NCBI GenBank assembly: GCA_963575745.1 | Contig: CAUYUJ010000191.1 | Span: forward strand, 1-64,000 | Length of the DNA: 64,000 bases | Source: Prorocentrum cordatum | Lineage: Eukaryota | Reading direction: 5' to 3' | Shown here: in pieces, positions 1 to 51,517 of the stretch | Numbering within the stretch: the stretch's first letter is position 1 | How the letters are laid out: the number at the start of each line of letters is the position of its first letter | Notes under the pieces: model-generated | Told to the model about the DNA's origin: nothing | What the model saw: the letters and a program-made list of their open reading frames with translations, nothing else | Database searches by the model: none | Made by a program: the position numbers and the translations under genes

Positions 1-3000
1 ACGGCCCAAGAGGCCTCCAAGAGCGCCCCAAGACAGCCCAAGAGGGCCCCAAGACGACCCAAGAGACGCTCAAGACGGCCTACGAGGGCCCGAAGACAGG
101 CCCAAGAGGGGGCCAAGAGGGGGACCAAGGACCGAAAATCCGAGCCTTCCGCCCCAAGAGGGCGCCAGGAGGCCCAAACATGCCCCCAAGAGGCCCCAAG
201 GGGCCGCCAAGAATCCCCCGAAGAGGCCCCAGGAGGCTCCCAAGGAGCCCAAACGAGGCCCCTACAGAGGCCCCAACAGCTTCCAAAATGGCCCCGAAGA
301 GGCCTCGAGCCCGCCTCCGAGCTTCCTCGCCGCGAGGGTGCCAACATGGCCCCAGACCGGCCCAGGACGGCCCAAGGCGCGCTCAAGACGGCCCAAGACG
401 ATTCCAAGACGGTCCCAGGAGGGTGCGCCCATGACGGCCCAAGGACGCGCCCGTTCGGGGCCTCAAGACGGGCCAAGATGGCAAGAGAGTCCCAGCTGGC
501 AAAAATCGTTAATTTTCCATTGTTTACTGTTACACCCATTGCGTTTCCCGCCGTTTCGGCGGTCCGATGCACCAAGAGGCCCCAGAAAGTCCCAGGAGGG
601 TCCGAGGAACCGCCCAGGAAGGCCCCAAGACGGGCCAAGACGGACCCAGCACAACCCAAGGCGCGCTGCGACGGCTCAAGACGGCTCCAAGACAGCCCCA
701 AAAGGGTGCCAACACGGCCCCTGCTGGCCCAGGACGGCCCAAGGAGGCGCACAGGAGGGTCCCAAGACGACTCCAAGGCGGGCCCCTCACGGTCCCAGAC
801 GGCTCCACGACAGCCCCACGAGGACCCCGATGGGCCCAGGACGGCCTACGGACGGCCCATGAGGGGCCCACGACGAACCAAGACGGCCCCATCACGGCAC
901 ACGGTGCCCTCAAGACGGGCCTGGACGGCTCCAAGACGGCCCTTTGAGGGAGCCAACGCGGCCCCATACCCTTCGGGCGCACACTTGGGGGGGCTGGGAG
1001 CTTGCGACAAGTCTCCCACATTCATTGTCCTGCCCCATTCTGTTCGCCTGGAGGCCTCCTCCAACCCTGTGGGCGAACATGAGGAATCCCAGCGGGACGC
1101 CAACCCTGGGGCCCGTGGGCCCCGCGCCGCTTGGGCAGGAGACGAACGCCGGGTCTGACAGGCCAGCTACCGCCCCCCTTTGCCCGATATGCTGTGCCAT
1201 TCTGTTCCCCCAGGGGCCTTGGCAAACTCTTCGGGCCAAGCAGACCGGGCCCCTGGGACAGCAGCCAATTGATATGACCCTGGGACCTCTCCGCATTCTT
1301 CGGACGAGCATCTGGAGGGCCCAGGAGATTCGGACATGTCTTCCCCATTCCTTGCCCTGTCCCGTTCTGTTCGCCCGAATGCCTCCACAGACCCTCTGGG
1401 CGAACAGAATGGGACATGGCGAACAAACCCTCCCGTTGGCGGTGATGCGACTGGATCGCACCATCAAGGCGCGCCCAGAGGTGATGGCCGACCCAACAGC
1501 GGTTTCTCTTAAGAGTTCACTGGATTTCAAATTTTCTTGAAGCTCTCTTGGGCCCTCCCTGTAGATCCTTGCGAGCCTCCCCGGCGCTTTCGGTGGCTTT
1601 CCCCGATGGCCTCCCGAGCCCTTCCGCGAGCGCTCCTGAGACGCCTCAGATGGGATTCGACTTCGACGCACATCCCCGAGAGACTTCGAAACTGTCCTCA
1701 ATAGGAGGGGGGTGAACGAGCAGTGCGCTGGGCCAAGCTGCTCCAGCGCTGCAAGAGCTCGGACACGAAGGCGCGGTCTCGCTGCCGCCGCCCGAGCCGC
1801 CGCCGTGTTTGTAGATTTTCGGTACAATCTGCGCCGTTCCTCCGAGAACCATTCCAGAAAGATGTCGTGGACGGAGTCCACGGGTCAGCCCTAGTCTCTA
1901 CTACATTGCAGGGCCCAGTGCGTGCCAGAAGGGCGCAGGCTCCAATGGGTCAAAACCGCCCCGGGCTGGCCCCGGGCCGCCCCGGTCCGCCCAGGCAGGC
2001 TCCAGGACATGTCGGGAGGGCCCCCAGAAGCCCCCAAGACGGCCCCGGAGAGCCCCGGCACGCTTAAAGATGGCCCAAGACGCCCGAGATTCGCCCCAGG
2101 CGGCCCAAGAGGCGTCCAAGACGCCCGAAGAGGCCTCCCAAGAGGCCTCCCAAGAGGGCCCCGAGCGACAGAAATAGTAGATTTCTACTGTGTTTTTCGA
2201 TGTTTTCGGCCTCCTCGCCTCGTCGGCTTCCCGACGCTCCAAGACGGCCCAAGAAGCCCCCCCGACCACTCCAAGACGGCCGAAGAGGACCCCAAGATAG
2301 CCCCAAGACGGGCCAGGAGGGCCCCCAGACGGTCCCAAGACGCCCCAGGACGGCCCCCGGACGGCCCAGGAGTCCCCCAAGACGGCCCAAGAGGCACCCA
2401 AGACGGCCCCAGGAGCGGCCCAAGACGGCCCAAGACAGCCCAAGAGCGCCCAAGACGACCGAGATTCGCCCCAGGAGGCCCTCGAGGCGTCCAAGACGCC
2501 CGAAGAGGCCTCCCAAGAGGGCCCCGAGCGACAGAAATCGTCGATTTCTATTGTGTTTTTCTATGTTTTCGGCCTCCTCGCCTCTTCGGCTTCCCGACGC
2601 TCCAAGACGGCCCAAGAAGTCCCCCCGACCGCTCCAAGACGGCCGAAGAGGACCCCAAGAGAGCCCCAAGACGGGCCAAGAGGGCCCCAAGACGGTCCCA
2701 AGACGCCCCAGGACGGCCCCAGGACGGCCCAGGAGGCGCCCCAGACGGCCCAAGAGGCACCCAAGAAGGCCCCAGGAGCGGCCCAAGACGGCCCAAGACA
2801 GCCCAAGAGGCGCCGAGGCGGGCCTCAGACGGCCCCAAGACGGCCCAAGAGGCACCCAAGACGGCCCGAGAGGGCCCTAAGAGCCCCCCGGGAGGCCCAA
2901 ACGAAGGCCGAAGAGGCTCCGAAACGGCCCCCACAAAGCCTTCAGTGCCTTCAGAATTCCCTCCAGGAGCGGGGGAGCGGACGAGAGGCGACAGGCATAT

Positions 3001-5826
3001 CGCAGGCAAAAACGCCCCAAGAGATCCCCAAACGGCCCCCACGAAGCCCTAAGTGGCTTCAGAATTGCTTCCAGGAGGGGTGGAGCGGACGAGAGGCGAC
3101 CGGTATATCGAAGGCACAAAAGAACAATGTTGGACGCTCCGAGGGCCTTCGATGTTTCTCCGTTGGGGAGAGTCGTCGTAGGATCGACGATTGCCGACCG
3201 AGGGCAGCGAATCCAGTGGAGGCCCAAGAGGCCCGCAGGAGCCCAAAAGAGATCCCCAAGAGGTGCCACGGGGCTTAAAAACTGCTTCGAAGCGAGGGGG
3301 CGGACGAGGGGACCGCCTCAGGAGGTTTTGGACGGTTTTGGGCCTCAAAATCGTCCGCTTTACGACGGTTTTGGAAGGATTTTGGCCTTCTCGCCTTTTC
3401 CGCTTTCCGACGCTCGAAGACGGCCCAAGAGGCCTCCAAGAGCGCCCCAGAACGGCCCAAGAGGTTTCCAAGAGCGCCCCAAGACAGCCCAAGAGGGCCC
3501 CAAGACGACCCAAGAGACGCTCAAGACGGCCCACGAGGGCCCGAAGACAGGCCCAAGAGGGGGCCAAGAGGGGGACCACGGACCGAAAATCCGAGCCTTC
3601 CGCCCCAAGAGGGCGCCAGGAGGCCCAAACAGGCCCCCAAGAGGCCCCAAGGGGCCGCCAAGAATCCCCCGAAGAGGCCCCAGGAGGCTCCCAAGGAGCC
3701 CAAACGAGGCCCCAACAGAGGCCCCAACAGCTTCCAAAATGGCCCCAAGAGGCCTCGAGCCCGCCTCCGAGCTTCCTCGCCGCGAGGGTGCCAACACGGC
3801 CCCAGACCGGCCCAGGACGGCCCAAGGCGCGCTCAAGACGGCCCAAGACGATTCCAAGACGGTCCCAGGAGGGTGCGCCCAGGACGGCCCAAGGACGCGC
3901 CCGTTCGGGGCCTCAAGACGGGCCAAGATGGCAAGAGAGTCCCAGCTGGCAAAAATCGTTAATTTTCCATTGTTTACTGTTACACCCTTTGCGTTTCCCG
4001 CCGTTTCGGCGGTCCGATGCACCAAGAGGCCCCAGAAAGTCCCAGGAGGGTCCGAGGAACCGCCCAGGAAGGCCCCAAGACGGGCCAAGACGGACCCAGC
4101 ACAACCCAAGGCGCGCTGCGACGGCTCAAGACGGCTCCAAGACAGCCCCAAGAGGGTGCCAACACGGCCCCTGCTGGGCCCAGGACGGCCCAAGGAGGCG
4201 CACAGGAGGGGCCCAAGACGACTCCAAGGCGGCCTCCTCACGGTCCCAGACGGCTCCAAGACAGCCCCACGAGGACCCCGATGGGCCCAGGACGGCCTAC
4301 GGACGCGCCCATGAGGGGCCCACGACGAACCAAGACGGCCCCATCAGGGCAAACGGCGCCCTCAAGACGGGCCTAGACGGCTCCAAGACGGCCCTTTGAG
4401 GGAGCCAACGCGGCCCCACACCCTTCGGGCGCACACTTGGGGGGGCTGGGAGCTTGCGACAAGTCTCCCACATTCATTGTCCTGCCCCATTCTGTTCGCC
4501 TGGAGGCCTCCTCCAACCCTGTGGGCGAACAAGAGGAATCCCAGCGGGACGCCAACCCTGGGCCCGTGGGCCCCGCGCCGCTTGGGCAGAAGACGAACGC
4601 CGGGTCTGACAGGCCAGCTACCGCCCCCCTTTGCCCGATATGCTGTGCCATTCTGTTCCCCCAGGGGCCTTGGCAAACTCTTCGGGCCAAGCAGACCGGA
4701 CCCCTGGGACAGCAGCCAATTGATATGACCCTGGGACCTCTCCGCATTCTTCGGACGAGCATCTGGGGGGCCCAGGAGATTCGGACATGTCTTCCCCATT
4801 CCTTGCCCTGTCCCGTTCTGTTCGCCCGAAGGCCTCCACAGACCCTCTGGGCGAACAGAATGGGACATGGCGAACAAACCCTCCCGTTGGCGGTGATGCG
4901 ACTGGATCGCACCATCAAGGCGCGCCCGGAGGTGATGGCCGACCCAACAGCGGTTTCTCTTAAGAGTTCACTGGATTTCAAATTTTCTTGAAGCTCTCTT
5001 GGGCCCTCCCTGTAGATCCTTGCGAGCCTCCCCGGCGCTTTCGGTGGCTTTCCCCGATGGCCTCCCGAGCCCTTCCCCGAGCGCTCCTGAGACGCCTCAG
5101 ATGGGCTTCGACTTCGACGCACATCCCCGAGAGACTTCGAAACTGTCCTCAATAGGAGGGGGGTGAACGAGCAGTGCGCTGGGCCAAGCTGCTGGAGCGC
5201 TGCAAGAGCTCGGACACGAAGGCGCGGTCTCGCTGCCGCCGCCCGAGCCGCCGCCGTGTTTGTAGATTTTCGGTGCAATCTGCGCCGTTCCTCCGAGAAC
5301 CAATCCAGAAAGATGTCGTGGACGGAGTCCACGGGTCAGCCTTATAGTCTCTACTACATTGCAGGGGCACGTGCGTGCGGGAAGGGCGCAGGCTCAAATG
5401 TCTCAAAACCGCCCCGGGCTGGCCCCGGGCCGCCCCGGGCCGCCCAGGCAGGCTCCAGGACACGTCGAGAGGGCCCCCAGAAGCCCCCAAGACGGCCCCG
5501 GAGAGCCCCGGCACGCTTAAAGATGGGCCCAAGACGCCCGAGATTCGCCCCAGGCGGCCCAAGAGGCGTCCAAGACGCCCGAAGAGGCCTCCCAAGAGGC
5601 CTCCCAAGAGGGCCCCGAGCGACAGAAATAGTAGATTTCTACTGTGTTTTTCGATGTTTTCGGCCTCCTCGCCTCGTCGGCTTCCCGACGCTCCAAGACG
5701 GCCCAAGAATCCCCCCCGACCGCTCCAAGACGGCCGAAGAGGACCCCAAGAGAGCCCCAAGACGGGCCAGGAGGGCCCCCAGACAGTCCCAAGACGCCCC
5801 AGGACGGCCCCCGGACGGCCCAGGAG
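1..5826. repeat. ~3.45-kb tandem duplication built from CCAAGA/GGCCC-rich degenerate short repeats plus a unique core
   Basis: CCAAGAGCGCCCCAAGACAGCCC occurs at 17 and 3468 (offset 3451). The core at ~940-1890 recurs at ~4390-5340. The second copy is truncated near 5826. Confidence 0.92.
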
Positions 5827-5929
5827 ACGAGCCGCCGCCGTGTTTGTAGATTTTCGGTACAATCTGCGCCGTTCCTCCGAGAACCATTCCAGAAAGATGT
5901 CGTGGACGGAGTCCACGGGTCAGCCCTAG

Positions 5930-6034
5930 TCAGCTACAGCGCTGGGGTCAGCGCGTGCGCGAAGGGCGGGCAGTGGCAGCCAGCGCTGGCGCTGCTGAGC
6001 GAGATGGGTAAGGCGAAGCTGGAGCCCGACGTCA
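5930..6034 (+). pseudogene. Single pentatricopeptide repeat (PPR) module, exactly 105 nt
   Basis: Translates as SYSAGVSACAKGGQWQPALALLSEMGKAKLEPDV(I), matching the PPR consensus. Preceded by AG at 5928-5929. No flanking coding context. Confidence 0.8.
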
Positions 6035-6179
6035 TTTGTGCCACAATTTTGGCTGAAGCGCGTGCGAGAAGGTCTTTTGTTCGAAGACCCGCCCTGGGGT
6101 GCCTCGAGAGCCCGCGGGGCATGCGAAAAACACATCTGGGACGCCAAACCACACCCTTGGGCGCCTCCAGGACGCCCCC

Positions 6180-6660
6180 CGACAGCTCTGGAAAGCCCCT
6201 GGGCCGCTCGTCGACGGCTCCTGGGCCCGCAGCGCGGCTCCCCCGAGCCCCGACACCTCCAAAAGGCCCCTGGGCCGCTCGCCGACGGCTTCCTCGCCCC
6301 CAGCTCTGCCCAAGACGGGCCCCCAGACGGCTTCCCGCAAGCCCCAAACCAAACCCCACACCCCACACCGAGCCCCCGACACCTCCAGAAAAGGCCCCTG
6401 GGCCGCTCGCCGACGGCTCCCTCGCCCCCAGCTCGGTCCAAGACGGCCTCCCAGATAGCCTTACGCACGCCTCCCGACGGCCCCAGGTCCCTGGGCGCTC
6501 GCCGACGGCTCCACAACATGCGCATCGCCCCGAGACGGCTTCACGCAAGCCCCAAACCAAGCCGCATACGCAACACAGAGCCCTCTCGCCCCCCGACGGC
6601 CTCCCAGATGACCTCCAGGACGCCCACCAACGGCTCCAGAAGGAACCTTCCATGACGCCA
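6180..6660. repeat. Degenerate minisatellite with GCCCCTGGGCCGCTCGCCGACGGCT core
   Basis: Core recurs near 6195, 6266, 6394 and 6489 with irregular spacing. Confidence 0.7.
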
Positions 6661-7109
6661 GAAGTTGCTCAACTCCATCCCAGGCCCTGGAGCATTCTGA
6701 ACTTCCCCAGACCCTCTCGGGAGCTTCTTGTCGACCCCAGCAGCGGCCGCGGCATACCTTCACGGTTTCAGATACTGTTGTTACCCAGGCCTCGTAGTGT
6801 TGGTGACACGGGGGGGGCCTTTCTCAACCGCCTCGTGTCGCTCCACAGCCGCACCACGCTCCAAACCCCGCCCTGGCGCCCAGACCACTCCGACCACTCT
6901 AACCTGCCGCACGCACCACCTGGAGCCCTAGACCATTCCAAGCTGCCTCAGGCCCTCTCAAGCGCCTCCTGTCGTACCCCAGGCGCACCATGCCCCAGAC
7001 CCCAGCCCAGACCCTGGACCACTCTGAGCTCCCCCTGCCCTCCTCTAGAGCCTCACGCGCGGGTTCCGGACCTCTGAGCCCTCGGAGCTCTTGCCGGGGG
7101 CCCCCAAAC

Positions 7110-8094: not shown

Positions 8095-8304
8095 TCAGCT
8101 ACATCGCTGGGATCAGCGCGTGCGAGAAGGGCGAGCAGTGGCATTGGGCTCTGGCGCTGCTCGGCGAGATGTGGGGGGCGAAGTTGGAGCCCAACGTCAT
8201 CTGCTACCAAGCTGGGATCAGCGCGTGCAGAAACAGCGAGCAGTGGCAGCGTGTTCTGGCGCTGCTCAGCGAGATGTGCGAGGTGGAGTTGGAGCCTGAC
8301 ACCA
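8095..8304 (+). pseudogene. Two tandem PPR modules (2 x 105 nt) followed by an in-frame stop
   Basis: SYIAGISACEKGEQWHWALALLGEMWGAKLEPNVI-CYQAGISACRNSEQWQRVLALLSEMCEVELEPDTI, then TGA-TAC-AGC (start of a third unit carrying a stop). Confidence 0.85.
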
Positions 8305-9159
8305 TCTGATACAGCCGAAACCGAGAATAGGGATGGGCAGCCTTCCCACAGGTACCCTTGCATCCTGGCCTCTTCGGTCTATCCTGAACCGCTTTCGATG
8401 GCCAGCCCCGCTCAGAAGGCTTCGACACTGGCAGCCAAGGGTCTTGTATCCCTGTCGCGCATCCTAACTATTATGTGGGGCCTGTCCCTCTACCGGAGGA
8501 ATATAAAAAATGGTCAACAGATAATCTGGGGACGATTTTTTGTTTGCTATTTTTGCCAATTTGGGGGATATTTTCTGACTATCTTTTGTTTCTCGCCCAA
8601 AAGATCCCCCTGTATGGGGACACGCCCGGCTTAGCCTTACTACCAGTTTTGACCCTACGCAGCGCTGGGGGTCGTGCGTGCGAGATTGGCATCCGTGTGC
8701 TGCCGGCTCCGCTCGGGCCGCGCCGCCGATCTGGGCGCTCCGAAGGTCGCCAGGCGGCTCCGGGTCGGCGTCAGGGACCCTGGGATTGCGCTCGAGAGGC
8801 CCCGCGAGGCCCCACGAGGCGAGCGTGAGGTCCCAAGAGAGGCCAGCAGGAAGCCCCAAGACAGGCCCCGGGCAGCAAATATACTTGAGCACCGCCGGGC
8901 TTTCCGCTGTTTGTGGCGTCCCGGCCCTTTCGGCTCGAGATCGCCTCAGGAGGTCCTCGCACGGCCTCGGAGTGCCCCAAGAAGCCTCCAAGACAGCCCA
9001 CGACTTCCTTCAGAGAGTCCCAAGAGAGGGCCCCAGATTGTCCAACAGAACTTTCTTCTCGACGGCCCAAGATGTCTCCAAGAGAGCTTCGAGACAGACC
9101 CTCCCCCTCAAATGCTGACACTAGCGCCCAACAGAGCCCCAGCACTGCCCTCAGATCCA

Positions 9160-9600: not shown

Positions 9601-9650
9601 TTCGCATGCGAGCAAGCTTTCGCGCACGCACGTCCCTGGGTCAGCCCCAG

Positions 9651-9730
9651 TCATCTACAGCGCGGCTTTGAGCGCGTGCAAGAAGGGCGAACAATGGCAG
9701 CGTGCTGTGGCGGTGCTACTGAAGTTTTAG
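9651..9730 (+). pseudogene. Truncated PPR module
   Basis: IYSAALSACKKGEQWQRAVAVLLKF-stop, starting directly after CCCCAG. Confidence 0.75.
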
Positions 9731-10728
9731 CCCAGCGCCATCTTCTGTATTGCCAGATGCAGCGCGGGCCAGAAGAGTGTTATCATGAAGTGGCCCAAGA
9801 TCGTCGGGCCGGCCACAGGGTCGCAGCGGGCGGGCCCTCAGATGGCCCGCTTTACGGCGGGCCCTCAGATGGCCCGCTGTACGGCCTCAAGAGGCCCCCC
9901 ACGACGGCCCAGACGTCACGCGTGAGGGCCCCAGTAGATCCCAAGAGTTATTTTGTTTAAAATGGTCGAAGGGGCCCTGAAGAGGACCAGAGAGCTTAGG
10001 ACTGCCTCTGGGTGGCCCCTGATGGTCCCAGAATTGTCTCAGTGGGCCCATCAAAGCACCCCAGCCATGAATACTTCAGCATTGGATACTTCAGCACCCC
10101 AGCAATGAAATTATCTGGCGAGGACTCAGCCCCCCAAGAGACGCGAAGAGGCCGAGAGGACTCCCAGATGCCAAGATGTTCCCAGCGGGCTCCCAACACC
10201 AATCGGTCGTTGAAAGTAGGTAGTTTTGGATTCCCAGAACCCAATCTACTTCAAGCGCCTTCCTACTCCAAGAATCGATGCGGTTTGGCTGTCGTTTGTT
10301 GTCCTTCTGGCGGGCCCGAACCCAATCTACTTTATCCGCCTCTCTACTCTGTGCTTTTACTTACTTCTTCTTCCGACCGGCGCGTGCGGCTCAGGAGGGC
10401 GCCAGGACGACGCCCCCCGAGACAGCGCGAGAGGGTCCCGTGAGGCCCCATGATGGCCAAGGAAGTCCAGGAGGGCCCCAAGAGGCACCAACGCCAGCCC
10501 GGGAGGATCCTGCTCTCAAGGGAGTCCCAAGACGCTGCAATGGGGGCCTTCCACAATCCCTCTTAAAGGCCCCCCAGGAGGCCCAAAGTCAGCCTGGGAG
10601 ATGGCCGCCAGAGAGCCCCCAGAGGCCCGGAAGGAGGGCTCGTATATATCGTTCCTCCTCTTCACCTCCGCTTGCTCCCTAGCATCCCATGCAGTGAACT
10701 CTTGTTTGCGCGCTACATCCACTAGGAG

Positions 10729-10757
10729 CCGTAGCCATTTCGCCATTTCGGCTCAAG
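10729..10757 (+). promoter_or_regulatory. Relic dinoflagellate spliced leader (DinoSL) with internal 8-nt duplication
   Basis: CCGTAGCCATTTCGCCATTTCGGCTCAAG versus canonical DCCGTAGCCATTTTGGCTCAAG; ends 69 nt upstream of the ATG. Confidence 0.9.
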
Positions 10758-10826
10758 TTCTGGCCCACGCGCAACGACCACAAGGCATCGGCAGCGCCGC
10801 TACTTCCCGAACCCCAAGCAGCAGGG

Positions 10827-11135
10827 ATGGCGCCAATGATGAAGTCCACGGTCATGACCAAGGGCGCCCTCACCGCAGCGCTCGCGGAGGCCTGCGAGGT
10901 GAAGAGGGGCGTGATCAGCACTGCCTTGAGCACTCTCGCGAGCATCGCAACGACAGAGGCGAAGAAGAACGGCAAGTTCGTCATCCCGGGCGTTGTGATG
11001 ATCAAGACCCGCCAGAAGAAGGCGACCAAGGCCGGGAAGCGCGAGATCTTCGGCAAAGTCGTCATGGTGAAGGCGAAACCGGCTAAGACTATCGTCAAGG
11101 CCTTCCCCGCGAAGGCCCTCAAGGACGAGTTCTGA
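10827..11135 (+). CDS. Dinoflagellate histone-like protein (HCc / HLP, major basic nuclear protein; bacterial HU-related), 102 aa, intronless
   Basis: MTKGALTAALAEACEVKR...GKFVIPGVVMIKTRQKKATKAGKREIFGKVVMVKAKPAKTIVKAFPAKALKDEF matches the HCc family pattern I recall. GC-rich third codon positions, intact start and stop. Confidence 0.95.
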   Translation: MAPMMKSTVMTKGALTAALAEACEVKRGVISTALSTLASIATTEAKKNGKFVIPGVVMIKTRQKKATKAGKREIFGKVVMVKAKPAKTIVKAFPAKALKDEF

Positions 11136-11666
11136 TGTCCCCCCGGTCTTTGGTGAGCCCTGCGAAGGGGCTCCGCGTGTGTTCCCCCCGCTCGTCCATT
11201 TTCCTCCTTCCCTCCGAGGAAACACCGTGTATTTTGTCTTGGTTCGCTGGAGGGTGCGTGGTCATGCATGGCCTTCCATCCCAGGTCGCTCGGCGAGAGC
11301 GATCACATGTACTCTATCTCCGTCTCGCCGGGAGAAACAAAACAACTAGGAGCGGGCCATCCTCAGTTATTTCGGGAAGGCAGAAACCATCGCAGGGCTC
11401 CGCACCGAACTCCAAGCCCCGTTGAAGCAGAACCGCTCGAGCCCGTCCGCAGATGATCAGCTTGCGCACTCCGAACGGAACGGCTCCCAGCACAGATGGA
11501 AGATCTCACTCGAGAGGGACCAACGACCGTGTGGCCTGTCGCACTGGCGCCGCCAGCTCCCGGAAGTCACTGCTGCGCGGCGGCGACGGAGGAGGGAGGG
11601 AGGCATCGAGCAGCGAGCAGACGACAGCGAACGCGCAGAGGCAGGAGGAGCATCGAACAGCAAGAT

Positions 11667-14600
11667 ATCGAAGACGCCTACGGCGAATCACCGCCGCCCC
11701 CTGCCTTTTTGGAAACGCCGATGTGGCCGAAAGTTGGACTAGAGCTTGGCCAAGCTATCGGACCATGAGTTCCCCGAGTCGGTTTGGAAAGCTTTCGGGG
11801 AACACATGGGAGAGAATGATTATGAACAGGAAGAGGAAGAGGAAGAAATAGAGTAGGAGGATGAGGGTTGTTAGGAGTCTCTTGGGGCACCCTTGGGGTC
11901 TGTTGGGAGCTTCTTGGGGGCCTCTTCGAGGCCTCTTGGAGGCATCTTGGGGGCCTCCTTGGGCCTCTTGGGGGCCTTTGGGGGCTTCCTGGGGGTCTCT
12001 TTGGCCGTCTTAGGGCGTTCCTGGTCCGTCTGACGCCGTCTGGAGCCGTCTTGGGGGCCTCTCTGGGCCGTCTTGGGGCCCTCTTGGGGCGCTTCAGGGC
12101 CGTCTTGGAGGCCATGTTGGGCGTCTTGGAGGCCTCTTGGGCCGTCTTGGGGCGCTCTTGGGGCCGTCTTGGGGGGCCCTTGGGCCGTCATAGGGCCTTC
12201 TTGGAGGCCTCTTGGGCGATCTTGGGGGCCTCTTGGGCCGTCGGAAGGCCGAAAAGAGAAAACGCAAAAAACCTTCAAAAACCTAAGGAAAACCAATGAT
12301 TTTGGCCTCTTCGGGCTCTCCTGGAGAACGTCTTGGAGGCCTCTTGGGCCATCTTGGAGGCATCTTGGGGCCATCTTGGCCGTCTTGGAGGGCATCTTGG
12401 GCCGTCTTGGAGGCATCTTGGAGCCATCTTACCCGTCTTGGAGGCCATCTTGGCCGTCTTGGAAGCATCTTGGAGGCCATCTTGGGCCATCTTGGCCGTC
12501 TTGGAGGCCATCTTGGGCCAAGTTGGGGCAACAAAGGCATTGACAGACGGATTTTCGGAAATTTACGGGTGGCCGGCGGGACGGGCCGAAGCCCACTGGG
12601 GAGTTCTTTTAGAAAAAGAACCAAAACCAAAACCTGAATCATCCAGCACGCCGTGCACCCCTGCAAGCAGGGGGCGGCGGATCGAAGACGCCTACGGCGA
12701 ATCACCGCCGCCCCCTGCCTTTTTGGAAACGCCGATGTGGCCGAAAGTTGGACTAGAGCTTGGCCAAGCTATCGGACCATGAGTTCCCCGAGTCGGTTTG
12801 GAAAGCTTTCGGGGAACACATGGGAGAGAATGATTATGAACAGGAAGAGGAAGAGGAAGAAATAGAGTAGGAGGATGAGGGTTGTTAGGAGTCTCTTGGG
12901 GCACCCTTGGGGTCTGTTGGGGGCTTCTTGGGGGCCTCTTCGAGGCCTCTTGGAGGCATCTTGGGGGCCTCCTTGGGCCTCTTGGGGGCCTTTGGGGGCT
13001 TCCTGGGGGTCTCTTTGGCCGTCTTAGGGCGTTCCTGGTCCGTCTGACGCCGTCTGGAGCCGTCTTGGGGGCCTCTCTGGGCCGTCTTGGGGCCCTCTTG
13101 GGGCGCTTCAGGGCCGTCTTGGAGGCCATGTTGGGCGTCTTGGAGGCCTCTTGGGCCGTCTTGGGGCGCTCTTGGGGCCGTCTTGGGGGGCCCTTGGGCC
13201 GTCATAGGGCCTTCTTGGAGGCCTCTTGGGCGATCTTGGGGGCCTCTTGGGCCGTCGGAAGGCCGAAAAGATGAAAACGCAAAAAACCTTCAAAAACCTA
13301 AGGAAAACCAATGATTTTGGCCTCTTCGGGCTCTCCTGGAGAACGTCTTGGAGGCCTCGTGGGCCATCTTGGAGGCATCTTGGGGCCATCTTGGCCGTCT
13401 TGGAGGGCATCTTGGGCCGTCTTGGAGGCATCTTGGAGCCATCTTACCCGTCTTGGAGGCCATCTTGGCCGTCTTGGAAGCATCTTGGAGGCCATCTTGG
13501 GCCATCTTGGCCGTCTTGGAGGCCATCTTGGGCCAAGTTGGGGCAACAAAGGCATTGACAGACGGATTTTCGGAAATTTACGGGTGGCCGGCGGGACGGG
13601 CCGAAGCCCACTGGGGAGTTCTTTTAGAAAAAGAACCAAAACCAAAACCTGAATCATCCAGCACGCCGTGCACCCCTGCAAGCAGGGGGCGGCGGATCGA
13701 AGACGCCTACGGCGAATCACCGCCGCCCCCTGCCTTTTTGGAAACGCCGATGTGGCCGAAAGTTGGACTAGAGCTTGGCCAAGCTATCGGACCATGAGTT
13801 CCCCGAGTCGGTTTGGAAAGCTTTCGGGGAACACATGGGAGAGAATGATTATGAACAGGAAGAGGAAGAGGAAGAAATAGAGTAGGAGGATGAGGGTTGT
13901 TAGGAGTCTCTTGGGGCACCCTTGGGGTCTGTTGGGGGCTTCTTGGGGGCCTCTTCGAGGCCTCTTGGAGGCATCTTGGGGGCCTCCTTGGGCCTCTTGG
14001 GGGCCTTTGGGGGCTTCCTGGGGGTCTCTTTGGCCGTCTTAGGGCGTTCCTGGTCCGTCTGACGCCGTCTGGAGCCGTCTTGGGGGCCTCTCTGGGCCGT
14101 CTTGGGGCCCTCTTGGGGCGCTTCAGGGCCGTCTTGGAGGCCATGTTGGGCGTCTTGGAGGCCTCTTGGGCCGTCTTGGGGCGCTCTTGGGGTCGTCTTG
14201 GGGGGCCCTTGGGCCGTCATAGGGCCTTCTTGGAGGCCTCTTGGGCGATCTTGGGGGCCTCTTGGGCCGTCGGAAGGCCGAACAGAAGAAAACGCAAAAA
14301 AACTTTCAAAAACCTAAGGAAAATCAATGATTTTGGCCTCTTCGGGTCCTCCTGAGGACCTCTTGAGGGGCTCTTGGACTGTGTTGGAGGCCTCTTTGGG
14401 GCCTCTTGGGCCATCTTGGGCCATCTTGAGGCTATCTTAGGCCGTCTTGGGTACATCTTGGGCCGTCTTGGAGGCATCTCAAGGCCATCTTAGCCGTCTT
14501 GGAGACCAGCTTGACCATCTTGGAGGCATCTTGGAGGCCATCTTGGAGCCGTCTGGGGCAGGAAATTGGGGAATTGAGGTCCTGGAAGGGTGGCCGGCGG

Positions 14601-14702
14601 GACGGGCCGAAGCCCACTGGGGAGTTCTTTTAGAAAAAGAACCAAAACCAAAACCTGAAACATCCAGCACGCCGTGCACCCCTGCAAGCAGGGGGCGGCG
14701 GA
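11667..14702. mobile_element. Three head-to-tail copies of a ~1.01-kb non-coding element with 14-bp asymmetric inverted repeats and a TCTTGG-rich interior
   Basis: Units start ATCGAAGACGCCTACGGCG at 11667, 12681 and 13696. CCGCCGCCCCCTGC (11691-11704) is the reverse complement of GCAGGGGGCGGCGG (12667-12680). Confidence 0.9.
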
Positions 14703-25996: not shown

Positions 25997-26168
25997 TTGA
26001 TGATGATGATTCTGATGATGCTGATGATGATTATGATGATGATGATTCTGATGATGCTGATGATGCTGCTGCTGCTGATTATGATGCTGATGATGATGAT
26101 GCTGATGTGGAGGATGATGCTGATGATGCTGATGATGCTGATGAGGATGACGATGATGATGCTGATTG

Positions 26169-26215
<47 letters not shown>

Positions 26216-26461
26216 CTGATGATGATGATGCTGCTGATGATGATGATGGAGAAGACGAAGGTGGTGGGGATGGCTGCTGTTGCTGACTATGATGTTGATC
26301 ATGCGGATTATGCCGAATGTGATGATGACGATGATGATGATTATTATGCTACCGAGGTCAATGATGCTGCTGATGTTTTTGATGATGATGATGATGATGA
26401 CTATGATGAGGATGATGATGCTGATGCTGCTGATGATGATGACGATGATGATGATGATGAC

Positions 26462-26498
<37 letters not shown>

Positions 26499-26794
26499 GT
26501 GATACTGATGACGAATGTGGTGGAGATGCTGCTACTGATGATGATGATGCTGTTGATGACGACGATGATGATAATGCTGACGATGCTGCTGATGATGATG
26601 ATCATGCTGATCCTGATGAAGATGATGATGATGATGAGGATGACGATGATGCTGATGATGTTGATATTGATGCTGATGATGATGATGGCGATAATCATGC
26701 TACTTATGCTGATGATGACGATTCTGATGACGCTGCCGCTGATGATGATGAAGGTGGTATGATGCTGCTCATGATGATGATGCTGATGATGATT

Positions 26795-26825
<31 letters not shown>

Positions 26826-27379
26826 CTTTGATTATGGGTATGGTGATGCTGATGCTGATGGTGGTATGGTGATGTTGCTGCTGCTGATGATGCTGCTGAT
26901 GATGATGATGATGATGATGATGTTGATGATGACTCTTATAATGCTGCTTATGCTGATGATGCTGCTGCTGATGATTATGCCTCGGCTGATGCGGATGCTG
27001 ATGACGAGGAATAGAAACATGAAGCCGAATGCAACTACGACGATGCTGCTGATGATGATACTGCTGATGTTGCTGATGATGCTGATGATGATAATGATGC
27101 TGATGATGATGATGAGGATGATGATGATGGTGATGGTGCTGCTGCTGATGCTGATGATGATGATGATGATGATGATGCTGATGATGATGATGATGATGAT
27201 GATGATGCAGCTTATGGTGCTGATGATGCTGATGATGCTGATGATGATGCTGGTGATGGTGAGGGTGATGACGATGATGATGATGCTGATGCTGCTGCTG
27301 CTGCCAATGATGATGCTGATGATGCTGATGATGAGGAGGAGGATGGTGACGATGAGGATGCAGATGATGGTGCTGAATC

Positions 27380-27435
<56 letters not shown>

Positions 27436-27558
27436 AACGATGACGATGATGATGATGATGATGATGAGGATGAGGATGAGGATGAGGATGATGATGATGA
27501 TGATGCTGCTATGATGATGATGATGATTATGATGCAGATGAGGATGAGGATGAGGATG

Positions 27559-27602
<44 letters not shown>

Positions 27603-27636
27603 GATGATGATGATGCTGCTGATGATGATGATGATT

Positions 27637-27669
<33 letters not shown>

Positions 27670-27933
27670 CTGATGATGATGATGATGACTTTGATTATGG
27701 GTATGGTGATGATGATGCTGATGGTGGTATGGTGATGTTGCTGCTGCTGCTGATGATGATGATGATGGTGATGTGGATGATGACTCTTATAATGCTGCTT
27801 ATGCTGATGATGTTGCTGCTGATGATTATGACTCGGCTGATGCGGATGCTGATGACGAGGAATAGAAACATGACGCCGAATGCAACTACGACGATGCCGC
27901 TGATGATGATACTGCTGATGATGATGCGGATGC

Positions 27934-27969
<36 letters not shown>

Positions 27970-28333
27970 GGATGATGATGATGATGATGATGGTGATGTT
28001 GCTGCTGCTGATGCTGATGATGATGATGATGATGCAGCTGATGGTGCTGATGCTGCTGATGATGATGATGATGCTGGTGATGGTCAGGGTGATGACGATG
28101 ATGATGATGCTGATGCTGCTGCTGCTGCCGATGATGCTGATGATGCTGATGCTGAGGAGGAGGATGGTGACGATGAGGACGCAGATGATGGTGCTGAATC
28201 ATGATGATGATGCTGATGCTGCTGATGATGATGAGGATCAGGATGATGATGATGATGATGATGCTGATGATGATGATGATGATGATGATGAGGATGCTGA
28301 TGATGATGATGATGATGCTGATGATGATGATGC

Positions 28334-33319: not shown

Positions 33320-35342
33320 ACTTGGGGTACTCTTGGGGGCTGGCTTGGAGCTATCTTGGAGGCCTCTTGGAGGCTTCTTGGGCCGTCGTGAAATGCATGA
33401 TTGCGGTGCTGATATGAATGCAGTGTAGCATAACGTGCAGGCGAGCAAGCAGCATGTGCGGATACTCCTGCGGAAGATTAAAGGCCTTTCCGTATCCATT
33501 TGGTTCAATCTTTTTCAGGGCTTTTGAGCTTGGGCGTTCGTCAGAGACATTCGCTTGCCTTGATAAGTCAAATACCTTCGCCGGTCTTTGCGCAGAGTGC
33601 CCCATCATTTGCATATCATAACCTTGCGGCTATCTTCGCTCACGAACCCCTCTTTGCAACGCTGGATCTGCAGCCGTCTTGGGCGGTCGGGAACCGGAAC
33701 AGGTGATCACTTCATAATCTATCAAACACTTAAGGAACATCAGCGGGTTTGGCCTCCTCGGACTCTCTAGGAGGGCCTCTTGGAGACCTCTCGGGCCGTC
33801 TTGGGGGCTTCTCGATATGTCTTGAGGCCTTCTTGGGGGCCTCCTCAGCCGTCGTGGGCCATCTTGAGCCATCTTGGCGTTATCTTGGCTGCCTTTAGCG
33901 CAGTCCTGGAGGCCATGAGGCTCCCAAGAAGGCCTCAAGACAGATTTAGAGGTCCCCGGGACGGCCGAAGAGGTCTCCAAGATGCCCTCCAGGAGAGTCC
34001 GAATCTGCCAAACCATTGATTTCCGCAGGTTTTTGTTGAAGGATTTTGACGTTCTGATATGTTCGGGTTCCCGACCGCCCGCGGCAGCCTGCGGGGCCTC
34101 TCTGGGCAGTGTTGACGCTCTCCTGGAGTGTTTCGCGGCTGTCTTGGGGCCTTCCTTTGGAGCCCTTTTGGGCGACCTTTGGGTTCTCTTGGGCCGACTT
34201 GGCGCCCTCTTGGGGGCCTTGTGCGCTGCCTTGGAGCTACAGTGGATGCCTCTTGGAAACCTCTCGGGCCGCCTTGGGCGCATCTTGAGCCGTTTTGTTG
34301 TCGTCATAGTTCTCTTGGAAACTGTCTTGGAGGCCATCTTGGCCGTCCTGGATCTCGTGGGAGGCCTCTCGGAGGCCTCTTGGAGACAGTTTTGAGGCCT
34401 CTTGGGGGCTGTTTCGGGGCCCCTCGGAGCCTTTTTTTGCGCCCCTTGGGGGTCTCTTGTGGCCTCTTGGGGGCTTCTTGAGGGCCTAGTGGGGCCTTCT
34501 GGGCGCCTCTTGGGGCGGAAGGCCAGGATTTTCGGTTCGTATTGTCTCTCCGTGGCCCCGTTTGGGGCCGCCTTGGGGCCCTCTTGGGCCGTTTTGGGCA
34601 CCTCTTGGGCCGTTTTGGGGCCCTCGTGGGCCGTTTTGGGGCCCTCTTGGAGGCCTCTTGGGCCGTCTTGGGGCTCTTGGGAGCCTCTAGGGACGTCTCG
34701 GAGCGTCGGGAAGCCGAAAAGGCGACAACCGAAGGAATATTAATGATTTTGGATTGTTGGGGCCCTCTTGGGAGGCCTCGTGGAGGCCTCTTTGGGCGTC
34801 TTATCCTGTGCCGTCATTGGGGGCCATCCTGAGCGTCTTGGAGCGATCGTTCGGCGACTCGGGGCCCTCTTGGACTGTCTTGGGGGGCCTCTTGGGGCCC
34901 TCTTGGCCCGTCTTGGGGTCCATCTCGGGCCCGAATCATTTATGCGACGACACGTCCCGGAGCCCAGGGGGCACGCGGGAAGCCCCTGAAGATTGGAGAG
35001 CGAAAGGGCCGAGCCCCTGAGAGACTCCTCGGGAGTGAGGATTGAGGCTCAGAGGACTGGGCCCAGGACCTGAGATACACTCCAGGCGATGCTTAAAAAA
35101 ACCCAAGTTTTCGGCCAGAGTCTCGATTATTCTTAATGTTTCAATGTAAATCCTAACATTTGAATAGACATTCTGGGTTTGATTTCAAATTCTGAGACTA
35201 TGAATTTCTTAACACATGATTTCTAAAGCATTTCGCAGGGTGTACGCCCACTCCGTGCCCAGAGCCACAGTGGCGGACCAAACCTCCCAATCAACAGACG
35301 AGCATTCCAACACGCCCACTCCGTGCAGGCACGGTGGCGGAT
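33320..35342. repeat. Composite TCTTGG-rich (reverse CCAAGA) repeat ending in two ACGCCCACTCCGTGC...GTGGCGGA terminal motifs
   Basis: Interior resembles 14750-15230 and the reverse complement of 1-5826. Terminal motifs lie at ~35245-35278 and ~35312-35342. Confidence 0.75.
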
Positions 35343-47467: not shown

Positions 47468-48498
47468 TTATCCCAGTGCGACCCTACCTAGGAGTTGGAG
47501 CATTTAGGAAAGCAACATCTACATCTACACCGACAGCTACATGTACATATACACCTGCATCTACATCTACATCACCATCAACAGCGAGACTCACATCTAC
47601 ATCGACATCTACATCTACATCTACATCTACATCTACATCTACACATCTACATCTACATCTACATCTACATCTACATCTACATCTACATCTACATCTACAT
47701 CTACATCTACATCTACATCTACATCTACATCTACATCTACATCTACATCTACATCTACATCTACATCTACATCTACATCTACATCTACATCTACATCTAC
47801 ATCTACATCTACATCTACATACATCTACATCTACATCTACATCTACATCTACATCTACATCTACATCTACATCTACATCTACATCTACATCTACATCTAC
47901 ATCTACATCTACATCTACATCTACATCTACATCTACATCTACATCTACATCTACATCTACATCTACATCTACATCTACATCTACATCTACATCTACATCT
48001 ACATCTACATCTACACATCTACATCTACATCTACATCTACATCTACATCTACATCTACATCTACATCTACATCTACATCTACATCTACATCTACATCTAC
48101 ATCTACATCTACATCTACATCTACATCTACATCTACATCTACACCTACATCCAAATCTACACCTACACCTACATCTACATCTGCACTTTCGCATTGGATT
48201 TGCTTTTGCTTTGCATTGCCTTTGCTTTTGCTCTTGCCTTTGCCCACGTACCACGCTAGAGGAGGCTAAGCTTAGCTAAGCTAAGCTAAGCTAAGCTGTT
48301 TTATGCTATGCTAGGGTGTGCTAGGCTGCGCTATGTTATGCACTGCAGGTCCGGCTGGGGGAACTGGGGGAACCGCGGGGCGGATAATGGGGGAACCGCG
48401 GGGCGGATACTGGGGGAACCGCCAGGGGCGCTTTCCACTGCCCGGCCCCTTTAAGCCAAGAGAGTAAGAACTCTTGTAGGCAGAGCCCAGGTCGGGAA
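47468..48498. mobile_element. Microsatellite-cargo element, copy A: (ACATCT)n, (TTTGC-type)n, (GCTAA)n
   Basis: Head TTATCCCAGTGCGACCCTACCTAGGAGTTGGA; tail GGGGGAACCG...TTCCACTGCCCGGCCC...GGCAGAGCCCAGGTCGGGAA. Confidence 0.88.
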
Positions 48499-48509
48499 AC
48501 AATAAATGA

Positions 48510-49500
48510 TTATCCCAGTGCGACCCTACCTAGGAGTTGGAGCATTTAGGAAAGCAACATCTACATCTACACCGGCAGCTACATGTACATCTACACCTGC
48601 ATCTGCATCTACATCAACATCAACAGCGAGACTCACATCTACATCTACATCTACACCTACATCTACACCTACAGCTACATCTACATCTACGTCTACACCT
48701 ACATCCACATCCACACCTACATCTACACCTACATCTACATCTACACTTTCGCATTGGTTTTGCTTTTGCATTGCATTGCCTGTGCTTTTGCTCTTGCCTT
48801 TGCTTTTGCCTTTGCCTTTGCTTTTGCTCTTGCTTTTGCTGTTGCTTTTTGCTTTTGTTTTTGCTTTTGCTTGATTCTGTTTTTGCTTTGCCTGCGCACA
48901 GACGCACACACACACACGCATGTTTTCGGATTCGCTCACCGCTATGCTGCGCTATGCACACGCATTTCGCTATGCTGCGCTGTGCTATGCTAAACAATAC
49001 TATGCTATGCTATGCCATGCTATGCTATGCTATGCTATGCTGCGCTATGCTATGCTATGCTATGCTATGCTGAGCTATGCTATGCTATGCTATACTATGC
49101 TATTCTATGCTATGCTGTGCTAATGCTGCGCTGCGCTATGCTGCGCTAAGCTAAGGTAAGGTCAGCTAAGGTAAGCAAAGCTATGCTATGCTAAGCTAAA
49201 CTAAGCTAAGCTAAGCTAAGCTAAGCTAGGCTAGGCTAAGTTAAGCTGAGCTAAGCTAAGCTAAGCCAAGCTAAGCTAAGCTAAACTAGGCTAAGCTAAG
49301 CTAAGCTAAGCTAAAATGAGATAAGCTAAGCTGAGTTAAGCTAAGCTGAGCTTAGCTAAGCTGAGCTGGGTGAACCCAGGGGCCGCAACTGGGGGAACCG
49401 CGGGGCGGATACTGGGGGAACCGCCTGGGGCGTTTTCCACTGCCCGGCCCTTTTAAACCCAGAGAGTGTGAACCCTTCTAGGCAGAGCCTAGGTAGGGAA
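48510..49500. mobile_element. Microsatellite-cargo element, copy B: ACATCT/ACACCT, TTTTGC, GCTAT and GCTAA tracts
   Basis: Same head. CCCTACCTAGG (48524-48534) pairs with CCTAGGTAGGG (49488-49498). Confidence 0.9.
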
Positions 49501-49516
49501 TACAAAGAAAAACATC

Positions 49517-49558
<42 letters not shown>

Positions 49559-49606
49559 CTAGTAGTAGTAGTAGTAGAAGTAGTAGAAGTAGTAGTAGAA
49601 GTAGAA

Positions 49607-49645
<39 letters not shown>

Positions 49646-49646
49646 C

Positions 49647-49702
<56 letters not shown>

Positions 49703-49759
49703 TTCGTAGATGTATTCGTAGCAACAGTCGTAGTAGTAGTAGTAGTACTAGTAGTAGTC

Positions 49760-49840
<81 letters not shown>

Positions 49841-49853
49841 AAAAGTAGTAGTG

Positions 49854-49890
<37 letters not shown>

Positions 49891-49982
49891 AAGTAGTAGT
49901 AGTAGTAGTAGTAGTAATAGAACAGTCTATCTCGTAGCTGAGCGCGCGAGACAGCGCACCCACAACCAAGCAATGCAACTTA

Positions 49983-50049
<67 letters not shown>

Positions 50050-50068
50050 CGTAGTCGTAGAAGTAGTC

Positions 50069-50147
<79 letters not shown>

Positions 50148-50782: not shown

Positions 50783-50822
<40 letters not shown>

Positions 50823-50955
50823 GAGTAGGAGTATTCGTAGTGGTAGTAGTAGTAGTAACATTCGTATTCGTAGTAGTAGGTTTAGTAGTAGTAGTAGTAG
50901 TAGTAGCAGCAGTAGTCGCAGTACTCCCAGTAGAAGTAGTAATAATAGCAGTAGA

Positions 50956-51011
<56 letters not shown>

Positions 51012-51026
51012 TCGTAGTAGTAGTAA

Positions 51027-51061
<35 letters not shown>

Positions 51062-51305: not shown

Positions 51306-51362
<57 letters not shown>

Positions 51363-51453: not shown

Positions 51454-51517
<64 letters not shown>

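What the first reader, a model, noticed from the sequence alone, without database searches (positions are those of the whole stretch)
10721..11353. Complete retroposed mRNA of a histone-like protein gene: TSD, spliced leader, CDS, A-tail, TSD
Seen: identical ACTAGGAGC at 10721-10729 and 11345-11353 brackets a near full-length DinoSL, a 69-nt 5'UTR, an intact intronless ORF, a ~200-nt 3'UTR and AAACAAAACA. Established: dinoflagellates recycle trans-spliced mRNAs into the genome, and TSD plus poly(A) are hallmarks of LINE-type target-primed reverse transcription. Inference: an event with both boundaries still readable, pointing to non-LTR machinery (fragments of which lie in this window). The intact ORF beside an eroded tail suggests purifying selection.
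Basis: partly seen in the sequence, partly recalled or inferred. Interest (0 to 1): 0.8.

Follow-up and report, generated by a model that had tools for sequence, protein, structure and literature searches.

The report
Retroposed dinoflagellate histone-like gene copy
A dinoflagellate gene for a bacterial-type DNA-packaging protein sits in the genome as a DNA copy of its own mature mRNA, still carrying the spliced leader, a short A-rich tail and a 9-base duplication of the insertion site: a clean example of a known process.

Summary
ACTAGGAGC occurs only twice in the window (10721-29, 11345-53). It brackets 615 bases: a DinoSL relic (one T>C, one internal 8-nt tandem duplication), a 69-nt 5'UTR, an intact 102-aa HU-like (MBNP/HLP) ORF, a 199-nt 3'UTR and AAACAAAACA.

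The relic ends exactly where the leader is joined in paralogous transcripts. Homology to a related contig (L001) starts inside the relic. A related cDNA-like contig (L002) ends in an A-run within 2 nt of the window's A-tract. Contigs of four public runs cover only 10737-11339.

Exact 9-mer repeats are common by chance (6 pairs in 1.5 kb). One abutting both independently defined ends has P of about 2e-4 to 1.4e-3.

Best reading: a trans-spliced, polyadenylated MBNP mRNA inserted at a staggered break, as in target-primed reverse transcription.

No reverse transcriptase or endonuclease domain was found in 410 ORFs of the window, and selection on this copy cannot be measured without its parent. 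Empty site, parent and genome-wide generality are untestable because no genome is held.

This is a new member of a known kind. The target-site footprint is the modestly new detail.

The parts
10721..10729 (+). Left copy of the 9-nt direct repeat (putative target-site duplication). Its last two bases, GC, could equally be the first two bases of the spliced leader.
   Evidence: family D11; positional statistics.
10728..10757 (+). DNA-encoded DinoSL relic GCCGTAGCCATTTCGCCATTTCGGCTCAAG. With the duplication removed it matches the 22-nt leader at 21 of 22 positions (T>C).
   Evidence: Leader consensus as quoted in PMC5585692.
10735..10750 (+). Tandem duplication of the 8-mer CCATTTCG inside the relic. 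Both copies carry the T>C.
   Evidence: Read directly.
10758..10826 (+). 5'UTR, 69 nt. It starts at the same AAG|TTC junction where the leader is joined in paralogous transcripts.
   Evidence: P0014, P0009; alignment to L001; contig cover begins in bin 10737-10803.
10827..11135 (+). Intact intronless ORF, 102 aa plus TGA: HU-like major basic nuclear protein / histone-like protein.
   Evidence: Pfam PF00216, E 4.4e-6, 27.3 bits against a cutoff of 22.4. Identity of 99% to transcript-derived proteins and 98% to a Prorocentrum cordatum protein.
11136..11334 (+). 3'UTR, 199 nt, alignable to the 3'UTRs of L001, L002 and L003.
   Evidence: Contigs with 0 other letters at 11181-11269, and at 11109-11270 with one extra T.
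11289..11332 (+). Predicted 10-bp stem-loop just before the A-tract. It is a weak feature of unknown meaning.
   Evidence: z -2.36; 5 of 200 shuffles fold as well; inverted repeat I6.
11335..11344 (+). A-rich tail AAACAAAACA (8 A, 2 C), a putative remnant of the poly(A) tail.
   Evidence: The terminal A-run of L002 begins at the column of window 11333.
11345..11353 (+). Right copy of the 9-nt direct repeat.

Best explanation
A mature mRNA of a highly expressed dinoflagellate major basic nuclear protein (MBNP/HLP, HU-like) was reverse-transcribed and inserted into repeat-rich intergenic DNA. The mRNA was trans-spliced with the DinoSL at its 5' end and polyadenylated at its 3' end.

Shown: the genomic copy is colinear with the mRNA from the leader to the polyadenylation site, and identical 9-mers abut both ends.

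Inferred, mechanism: integration at two nicks staggered by 7-9 nt, as in target-primed reverse transcription by a non-LTR retrotransposon acting in trans. The bottom strand would be nicked at ...ATCC|ACTAGG..., and cDNA synthesis would run from the tail to the capped end. The 5' junction would be resolved either at a 2-nt GC microhomology or with loss of the first two leader bases. Fill-in would then produce the duplication.

Inferred, fate of the copy: it is either very young or is itself transcribed and re-trans-spliced at an AG of its relic. The parts that would appear in a mature mRNA match expressed contigs almost exactly. The parts outside a mature mRNA (relic and tail) carry changes.
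For: 1. The leader relic is real. There is one exact core match in the window, against 0.19 expected with up to 2 mismatches.
2. The junction is right. Proteins translated from transcripts show the leader joined to the same UTR start: P0014 reads AILAQ|VLAH..., P0009 reads WLK|FQPTR.... They are two of the four hits, among the 120 listed, whose N-terminal extension translates the leader; the other two are more distant paralogs.
3. 5' boundary. Homology to L001 (87.6% over 437 nt) begins at window 10746 inside the relic, and the sequence upstream is unrelated.
4. 3' boundary. The L002 3'UTR aligns to the window up to its terminal A-run, which begins 2 nt before the window's A-tract. Four of the 14 JGI loci end in A-runs of 6 or more, as poly(A)+ cDNA assemblies do.
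5. Contigs of four runs cover bins 10737-11339 at very high summed depth. The best run holds 0.51 of the sampled words of 10500-11600, about what the mRNA-like part alone would give.
6. The 9-mer occurs only twice in 64 kb. A 9-mer abutting both ends has P of 2.2e-4 analytically and 270 of 200,000 empirically.
7. The copy is solitary. There is no other HLP gene and no copy of its flanks in the window.
8. The protein is an MBNP/HLP, among the most highly expressed dinoflagellate genes according to passages of PMC11453091. That fits a frequent retroposition template.
Against: 1. The tail is only 10 nt and holds 2 C.
2. The target is not A/T-rich, so it is not L1-like.
3. Exact 9-mers are common by chance (6 pairs in 1501 nt), and 2 of the 9 bases may belong to the leader.
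4. No reverse transcriptase or endonuclease domain was found in 410 ORFs of the window.
5. Only one paralog (L002) informs the poly(A) site. Its A-run is 6 nt, at a contig end.
6. The laid runs are contigs of unstated type, so starts, ends and strand are not shown.
7. No empty site, no parent gene and no genome are available.
8. L006 shows that a leader relic can be copied at the DNA level together with about 230 nt of upstream sequence. A relic alone therefore does not date a retroposition.
9. The Prorocentrum cordatum protein P0008 also translates a ...CGGCTCAAG-like relic (RLK). The T>C may therefore be inherited or come from a leader variant, and need not be decay in this copy.
Confidence: 0.65

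Rival explanations
1. This is an older retrogene that was later copied at the DNA level (segmental or tandem duplication, then rearrangement). The relic would be inherited, and the 9-mer pair would be a coincidence.
For: Six exact 9-mer pairs occur by chance in 1.5 kb. In L006 a relic plus about 230 nt of upstream sequence is repeated in front of two different genes. P0008 and L001 show that other family members also carry relics. The relic here carries two changes.
Against: The repeat abuts both independently defined ends, with P of 2e-4 to 1.4e-3. Homology to L001 stops inside the relic. No other copy of the gene or its flanks lies in 64 kb.
Confidence: 0.15
2. The cDNA was made by some cellular or retroelement reverse transcriptase and captured during repair of a staggered double-strand break (end joining with fill-in), without an endonuclease-driven target-primed reaction.
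For: The target is not A/T-rich and only one T could pair with the tail. There is a 2-nt microhomology at the 5' junction and the tail is short. No LINE domains lie nearby.
Against: Recalled, not tested: repair-mediated capture usually gives deletions or filler rather than a clean 9-nt duplication. The insert runs exactly from the leader to the tail.
Confidence: 0.12
3. It is an ordinary, non-retroposed gene with a chance leader-like sequence, or an assembly chimera that contains cDNA.
For: None specific. The window is a repeat-rich assembly of unknown quality.
Against: A 15-nt exact leader core, plus CCGTAG upstream of it, sits at the exact trans-splice junction. A chimera would not be flanked by a duplication of unique flank sequence.
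Confidence: 0.03

Closest known systems
Dinoflagellate retrogenes tagged by DinoSL relics ('recycled processed cDNAs': Slamovits & Keeling 2008 as cited in PMC6050394; Song et al. 2017, PMC5585692; PMC12014239)
   Same: A DNA-encoded leader lies directly upstream of the 5'UTR of an intronless gene. The template is a highly expressed gene. The relic supplies AG acceptors for renewed trans-splicing.
   Different: Here both insertion boundaries are readable: a 9-nt flanking duplication and an A-rich tail. Passages and term counts of the three retrogene papers show 0 mentions of target site, TSD, direct repeat or target-primed reverse transcription. The relic is near full-length and carries an internal 8-nt duplication, rather than the usual truncated CCATTTTGGCTCAAG form.
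LINE-1-mediated processed retrocopies of mammals
   Same: It is intronless and colinear with the mRNA, has a 3' A-tail, and is flanked by a direct repeat of 7-20 nt.
   Different: The target is ...ATCC|ACTAGG..., not TT|AAAA. The tail is 10 nt and impure. The 5' end is complete rather than truncated. No LINE was found in the window. The L1 features are recalled, apart from the abstract of PMC7692494 listed.
HU-like histone-like proteins / major basic nuclear proteins of dinoflagellates (HCc, HLP, MBNP; Pfam PF00216)
   Same: The protein passes the Pfam gathering score and is 98-99% identical to Prorocentrum-type MBNP sequences.
   Different: Nothing notable in the protein itself. It differs from the commonest expressed variants at G13 and S31, both of which are seen in other expressed members.

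Membership tests
DinoSL-relic retrogene | Genome-encoded DinoSL sequence immediately 5' of the UTR, at the junction where the leader is trans-spliced in mRNAs. | tested here: met
   The relic ends at 10757. P0014 and P0009 show the leader joined at the same AAG|TTC.
DinoSL-relic retrogene | Colinear with the mature mRNA, with no introns. | tested here: met
   The alignment with the cDNA-like contigs L001-L003 is unbroken across UTRs and CDS, apart from a 3'UTR indel that differs among paralogs. The only joints laid within the mRNA-like part are that 3'UTR indel (11135 to 11234/11241) and CDS 'goes back' joints at 11038. Whether the parent has introns is unknown.
DinoSL-relic retrogene | An identifiable parent gene elsewhere in the genome. 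| not testable with these tools
   No genome is held for this window.
Target-primed (non-LTR/LINE-type) retrocopy | Target-site duplication directly abutting both ends of the insert. | tested here: met
   A 9-nt exact repeat, with only two copies in the window. Positional P is 2.2e-4 and 270 of 200,000. Only 7 nt are certain if GC belongs to the leader.
Target-primed (non-LTR/LINE-type) retrocopy | Poly(A) tail at the mRNA's polyadenylation site. | tested here: inconclusive
   The A-rich tract is 10 nt with 2 C. Its position agrees within 2 nt with the terminal A-run of the single informative paralog, L002.
Target-primed (non-LTR/LINE-type) retrocopy | Empty (pre-insertion) site in a related genome. 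| not testable with these tools
   No dinoflagellate genomes can be searched. No joint skipping 10730-11353 appeared in the four runs laid, but these look like RNA.
Target-primed (non-LTR/LINE-type) retrocopy | Autonomous non-LTR element (RT plus endonuclease) available in the genome. | tested here: inconclusive
   None among 410 ORFs of 90 aa or more in the window. The genome was not searched. Passages of PMC12014239 and PMC10235124 say such elements are abundant in dinoflagellates.
L1-clade-type integration specifically | A/T-rich nick site (TT|AAAA). | tested here: not met
   The inferred nick is ...CATCC|ACTAGG.... The L1 consensus is recalled.
HU-like MBNP/HLP (PF00216) | Bac_DNA_binding domain above the gathering score, and near-identity to named dinoflagellate members. 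| tested here: met
   (27.3 bits against 22.4). P0008, 98%, 'Major basic nuclear protein', Prorocentrum.

The most novel reading that the evidence does not exclude
This locus is a base-resolved footprint showing that dinoflagellate mRNA recycling uses endonuclease-dependent target-primed reverse transcription. It has a 7-9-nt target-site duplication, a copy complete to the capped leader, a short tail, and a non-A/T-rich nick site, which implies a non-L1-like endonuclease. The copy is a live retrogene. Its mRNA-visible parts match expressed RNA exactly, while the parts spliced off or lying beyond the poly(A) site have drifted. That would make the long-assumed but undocumented machinery of dinoflagellate retroposition directly testable by a genome-wide screen for such duplications.
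Probability: 0.4. Interest if true: 0.5.

Novelty: new member of a known kind. Interest (0 to 1): 0.35.

Why it matters
Retroposition of leader-tagged mRNAs is held to be a major driver of gene-family and genome expansion in dinoflagellates. The machinery, however, is only presumed. Passages of Song et al. 2017 (PMC5585692) say the activities are 'presumably provided by LINEs', mention an LTR candidate, and say the evidence suggests a machinery that differs from the one in humans.

A retrocopy with both junctions intact gives concrete, screenable parameters: duplication length, nick-site sequence, tail length and completeness of the 5' end. On its own it is one anecdote of an expected process. 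Its value is as a template for a genome-wide test.

Tried and rejected
- Whole genome: none is held. No search for a parent, paralog flanks or an empty site was possible.
- Earlier findings of this scan: nothing by place, sequence or words.
It was replaced by stop-free ORFs of 170 aa or more and of 90-169 aa. These gave only sub-threshold, low-complexity hits and one weak PPR hit, with no RT or EN. Fragments under 90 aa or split by frameshifts would be missed.
- Two other leader-like matches (6044-6058, 8925-8939; 2 mismatches each). By eye they are chance or part of a PPR-like ORF, and they were not pursued.
- Screen of the window for other 'A-tract followed by a direct repeat' insertions. 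It is uninformative: 6,371 of 20,000 random control positions also score, because of satellites.
- Search for transcripts that translate this locus's own relic and UTR (residues 1-46 of the 145-aa open frame): 4 candidates, none scored. The exact 102-aa protein is not in the 15-billion collection. Neither result says the locus is silent.
- Viral-contig scan for relatives: none.
- Read laying: there was no cover at 10402-10736 or 11340-11406 in any of the 4 runs, and no joint across the insert. These are contigs of probable RNA, so the holes prove nothing about DNA.
- The bacterial promoter/terminator scan is irrelevant here.
- The L001 upstream ORF gave no Pfam hit.
- The empty-site sequence was not searched as a typed pattern, because it would be a joined sequence.

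Full report
**What is there**

The window is GC-rich (57%) and full of satellites. At 10721-11353 the + strand reads as follows:
- ACTAGGAGC (10721-29).
- CGTAGCCATTTCG CCATTTCG GCTCAAG (to 10757).
- A 69-nt leader-less 5'UTR.
- ATG...TGA, 102 codons (10827-11135).
- A 199-nt 3'UTR.
- AAACAAAACA (11335-44).
- ACTAGGAGC (11345-53).

If the last GC of the left 9-mer is counted, the leader-like block GCCGTAGCCATTTCGCCATTTCGGCTCAAG is the complete 22-nt DinoSL. The consensus DCCGUAGCCAUUUUGGCUCAAG is quoted in PMC5585692. The block differs from it by one T>C and a tandem duplication of the 8-mer CCATTTCG. Both copies of the 8-mer carry the C. So the substitution, or a variant template, came before the duplication.

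**The gene**

The ORF hits Pfam Bac_DNA_binding above the gathering score (E 4.4e-6, 27.3 bits against 22.4). In the protein search, 2,303 of 2,321 candidates scored E of 1e-3 or better. The best are 99% identical. The closest named one is a Prorocentrum cordatum 'major basic nuclear protein', 98% identical.

Passages of PMC11453091 state that MBNP, HLP and HCc are one family and among the most highly expressed dinoflagellate genes. The organism is therefore probably a Prorocentrum-like dinoflagellate. This is an inference from protein identity only.

**Is it a copy of an mRNA? The 5' end**

Many database proteins are translations of transcripts that read through the 5'UTR. Four of the 120 listed hits translate the leader itself: P0014, P0050, P0114 and P0009.
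- In P0014 (97% identical) the leader peptide AILAQ runs straight into VLAH..., which is the window's TTCTGGCCCAC... in that frame.
- In P0009, WLK runs into FQPTR..., the L001-type UTR.

So the leader is joined to these mRNAs at exactly the base where the genomic relic ends (10757|10758).

The JGI contig L001 is 87.6% identical over 437 nt. Its match begins at window 10746, inside the relic, where L001 has a degenerate GTGTTTTGGCACAAAG. It is unrelated upstream. The P. cordatum gene model P0008 also translates ...RLK before its UTR and is unrelated before that.

Three loci thus lose homology inside or at a leader relic. Separate mRNA-derived insertions predict this. Segmental duplication does not.

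**The 3' end**

Only one close relative reaches the end of the 3'UTR. L002 aligns to the window up to ...CTCGCAGAT and then ends in AAAAAA at its contig end. That A-run starts at the column of window 11333, and the window's A-tract starts at 11335.

Four of the 14 JGI loci (L002, L009, L012, L014) end in A-runs of 6-12 nt, as poly(A)+ cDNA assemblies do. L001 stops 20 nt short of the tail. L003 and L014 diverge earlier and look chimeric.

**Public runs**

None of the 24 listed runs holds more than 0.51 of the sampled words of 10500-11600. Words lying wholly inside the mRNA-like part would give about 0.51-0.54.

I laid four runs on 10000-12000 at 90% likeness or better. Their contigs cover only the bins 10737-11339. 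Summed depths reach millions and thousands of variant contigs were laid (7,493 in X1). This fits a very large, very highly expressed family.

Some contigs match the window exactly: 11181-11269; 11109-11270 with one extra T; 10887-10975; 11049-11120.

These are contigs of unstated library type. The uncovered flanks are therefore recorded only under Tried and rejected.

**The repeat: chance or footprint?**

An exact 9-mer direct repeat somewhere in this region means nothing. There are 6 such pairs in 1501 nt against about 6.1 expected.

ACTAGGAGC, however, occurs only twice in 64 kb, and it abuts both ends as defined by the leader and by the tail/poly(A) alignment.
- With +-3 nt slack at each end, the analytic probability is 2.2e-4.
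- With a looser right end (147 offsets) it is 6.5e-4.
- Random position pairs in low-repeat parts of the window reach 9 nt in 270 of 200,000 trials. Over the whole satellite-rich window they do so in 8,121 of 200,000.
- If only ACTAGGA is duplication and GC is leader, P is about 2.4e-3.

I take the repeat as a real target-site duplication of 7-9 nt, with odds of about 3:1.

**Mechanism**

A clean staggered duplication, an insert running from the first (or third) leader base to a tail at the poly(A) site, and no foreign sequence at either junction make up the anatomy of target-primed reverse transcription in trans.

Three things depart from the mammalian L1 picture, which I recall rather than tested:
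- The inferred first nick, ...ATCC|ACTAGG..., is not A/T-rich.
- The tail is 10 nt with two C.
- The copy is 5'-complete.

No reverse transcriptase, endonuclease or RNase H domain was found in 169 ORFs of 170 aa or more, or in 241 ORFs of 90-169 aa. Shorter or frameshifted remnants would be missed.

**Age and selection**

In run X1, 17 of the 21 variant positions inside the CDS are synonymous. That is family-level constraint.

At 8 positions the window differs from more than 80% of the laid depth: 6 synonymous and 2 replacements (G13, S31). Both replacement states occur in other expressed members such as P0001. They are inherited variants, not decay.

The mRNA-visible parts match expressed contigs almost exactly. 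The relic (one substitution, one duplication) and the tail (two C) are altered. Two readings fit:
- A very young copy whose end anomalies arose during reverse transcription or integration.
- An older copy that is itself transcribed, re-spliced at a relic AG and polyadenylated at the old site, so that only the non-mRNA parts drift.

I cannot separate the two. The search for proteins translating this locus's own relic found nothing, and the exact protein is not in the collection.

**Caution from relatives**

In L006, from a more distant dinoflagellate, a block of about 230 nt ending in a near-complete relic (TCCGTTTCCATTTTGGCTCAAG) is repeated in front of an HLP gene and in front of a cyclophilin-like ORF. 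Relics can therefore travel by DNA-level duplication.

This is why the flanking duplication and the homology breakpoints carry the argument here, not the relic alone.

**Literature**

Three full-text searches found the dinoflagellate retrogene papers. I read passages of them through term look-ups:
- PMC5585692, PMC6050394 and PMC12014239 have 0 occurrences of 'target site', 'direct repeat', 'TSD' and 'target-primed reverse transcription'.
- PMC10235124 has 0 occurrences of 'target site'.
- In the search listing, PMC7789003 (Amoebophrya) has one occurrence of 'target site duplication'. By its title it concerns intronic elements. I did not open it.

The passages say the activities are 'presumably provided by LINEs', that an LTR element was also proposed, and that evidence is lacking. 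Subscription papers such as Slamovits & Keeling 2008 (cited), and supplements, were not seen and may hold such observations.

**Verdict**

It is not supported in two side claims.

This is a well-preserved new member of a known kind. The duplication footprint is a useful but single-locus hint about the integration machinery.

Noticed in passing
window 11667-14701: Three tandem units of 1,015 bp (99.7%, 100% and 91.7% identical), each built largely of an 11-nt CTCTTGGGGGC-type satellite. The array starts 313 nt downstream of the retrocopy. Related satellite stretches lie at about 1-5800 and 33900-34900.
   Followed up: partly
window 5635-7074, 8106-8296, about 9640-9730: PPR-like repeat fragments: a weak Pfam PPR_2 hit (E 2.9e-4, below the cutoff) and a 105-nt (35-aa) tandem period. 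They may be remnants of a pentatricopeptide-repeat gene upstream of the retrocopy.
   Followed up: no
L001 2-1660 (JGI contig Ga0314713_10000910): A 552-aa, 5'-open ORF with a GDD motif has no Pfam hit. Its protein-language-model neighbours are all viral RdRp clusters (score 0.97). On the same strand it is followed by a leader-like CCATTTTGGCTAAAG (1700-1714) and then by an HLP gene with a degenerate relic. It may be an expressed endogenous RNA-virus element beside a retrogene, or a chimeric assembly.
   Followed up: partly
L006 15-247 and 1195-1407: A block of about 230 nt ending in a near-complete leader relic is repeated in front of two different genes (HLP and a cyclophilin-like ORF). This is a DNA-level spread of a 'relic plus upstream' cassette in another dinoflagellate.
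   Followed up: no
P0008 (Prorocentrum cordatum gene model, 143 aa): The annotated protein is extended at its N-terminus by translation of the 5'UTR and of a leader-relic remnant (…VRLK…). This looks like gene-model over-extension. It also shows the CGG (T>C) form of the relic in a second locus.
   Followed up: no
window 11289-11332: A predicted 10-bp stem-loop lies immediately before the A-tract (MFE -24.2 kcal/mol, z -2.36). Only about 5 of its pairs are kept in L002.
   Followed up: partly
window 26000-28000, 48000-53000, 58000-62000: AT-richer, highly repetitive blocks (GC 0.36-0.45) contrast with the roughly 0.6-0.67 GC of the rest of the window.
   Followed up: no
window 11136-11233 vs L001/L014: The paralog 3'UTRs differ by an indel of about 60-100 nt. 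X1 contigs skip 11135 to 11234/11241, and L001 and L014 lack the segment. There are therefore at least two 3'UTR subfamilies of this gene.
   Followed up: no
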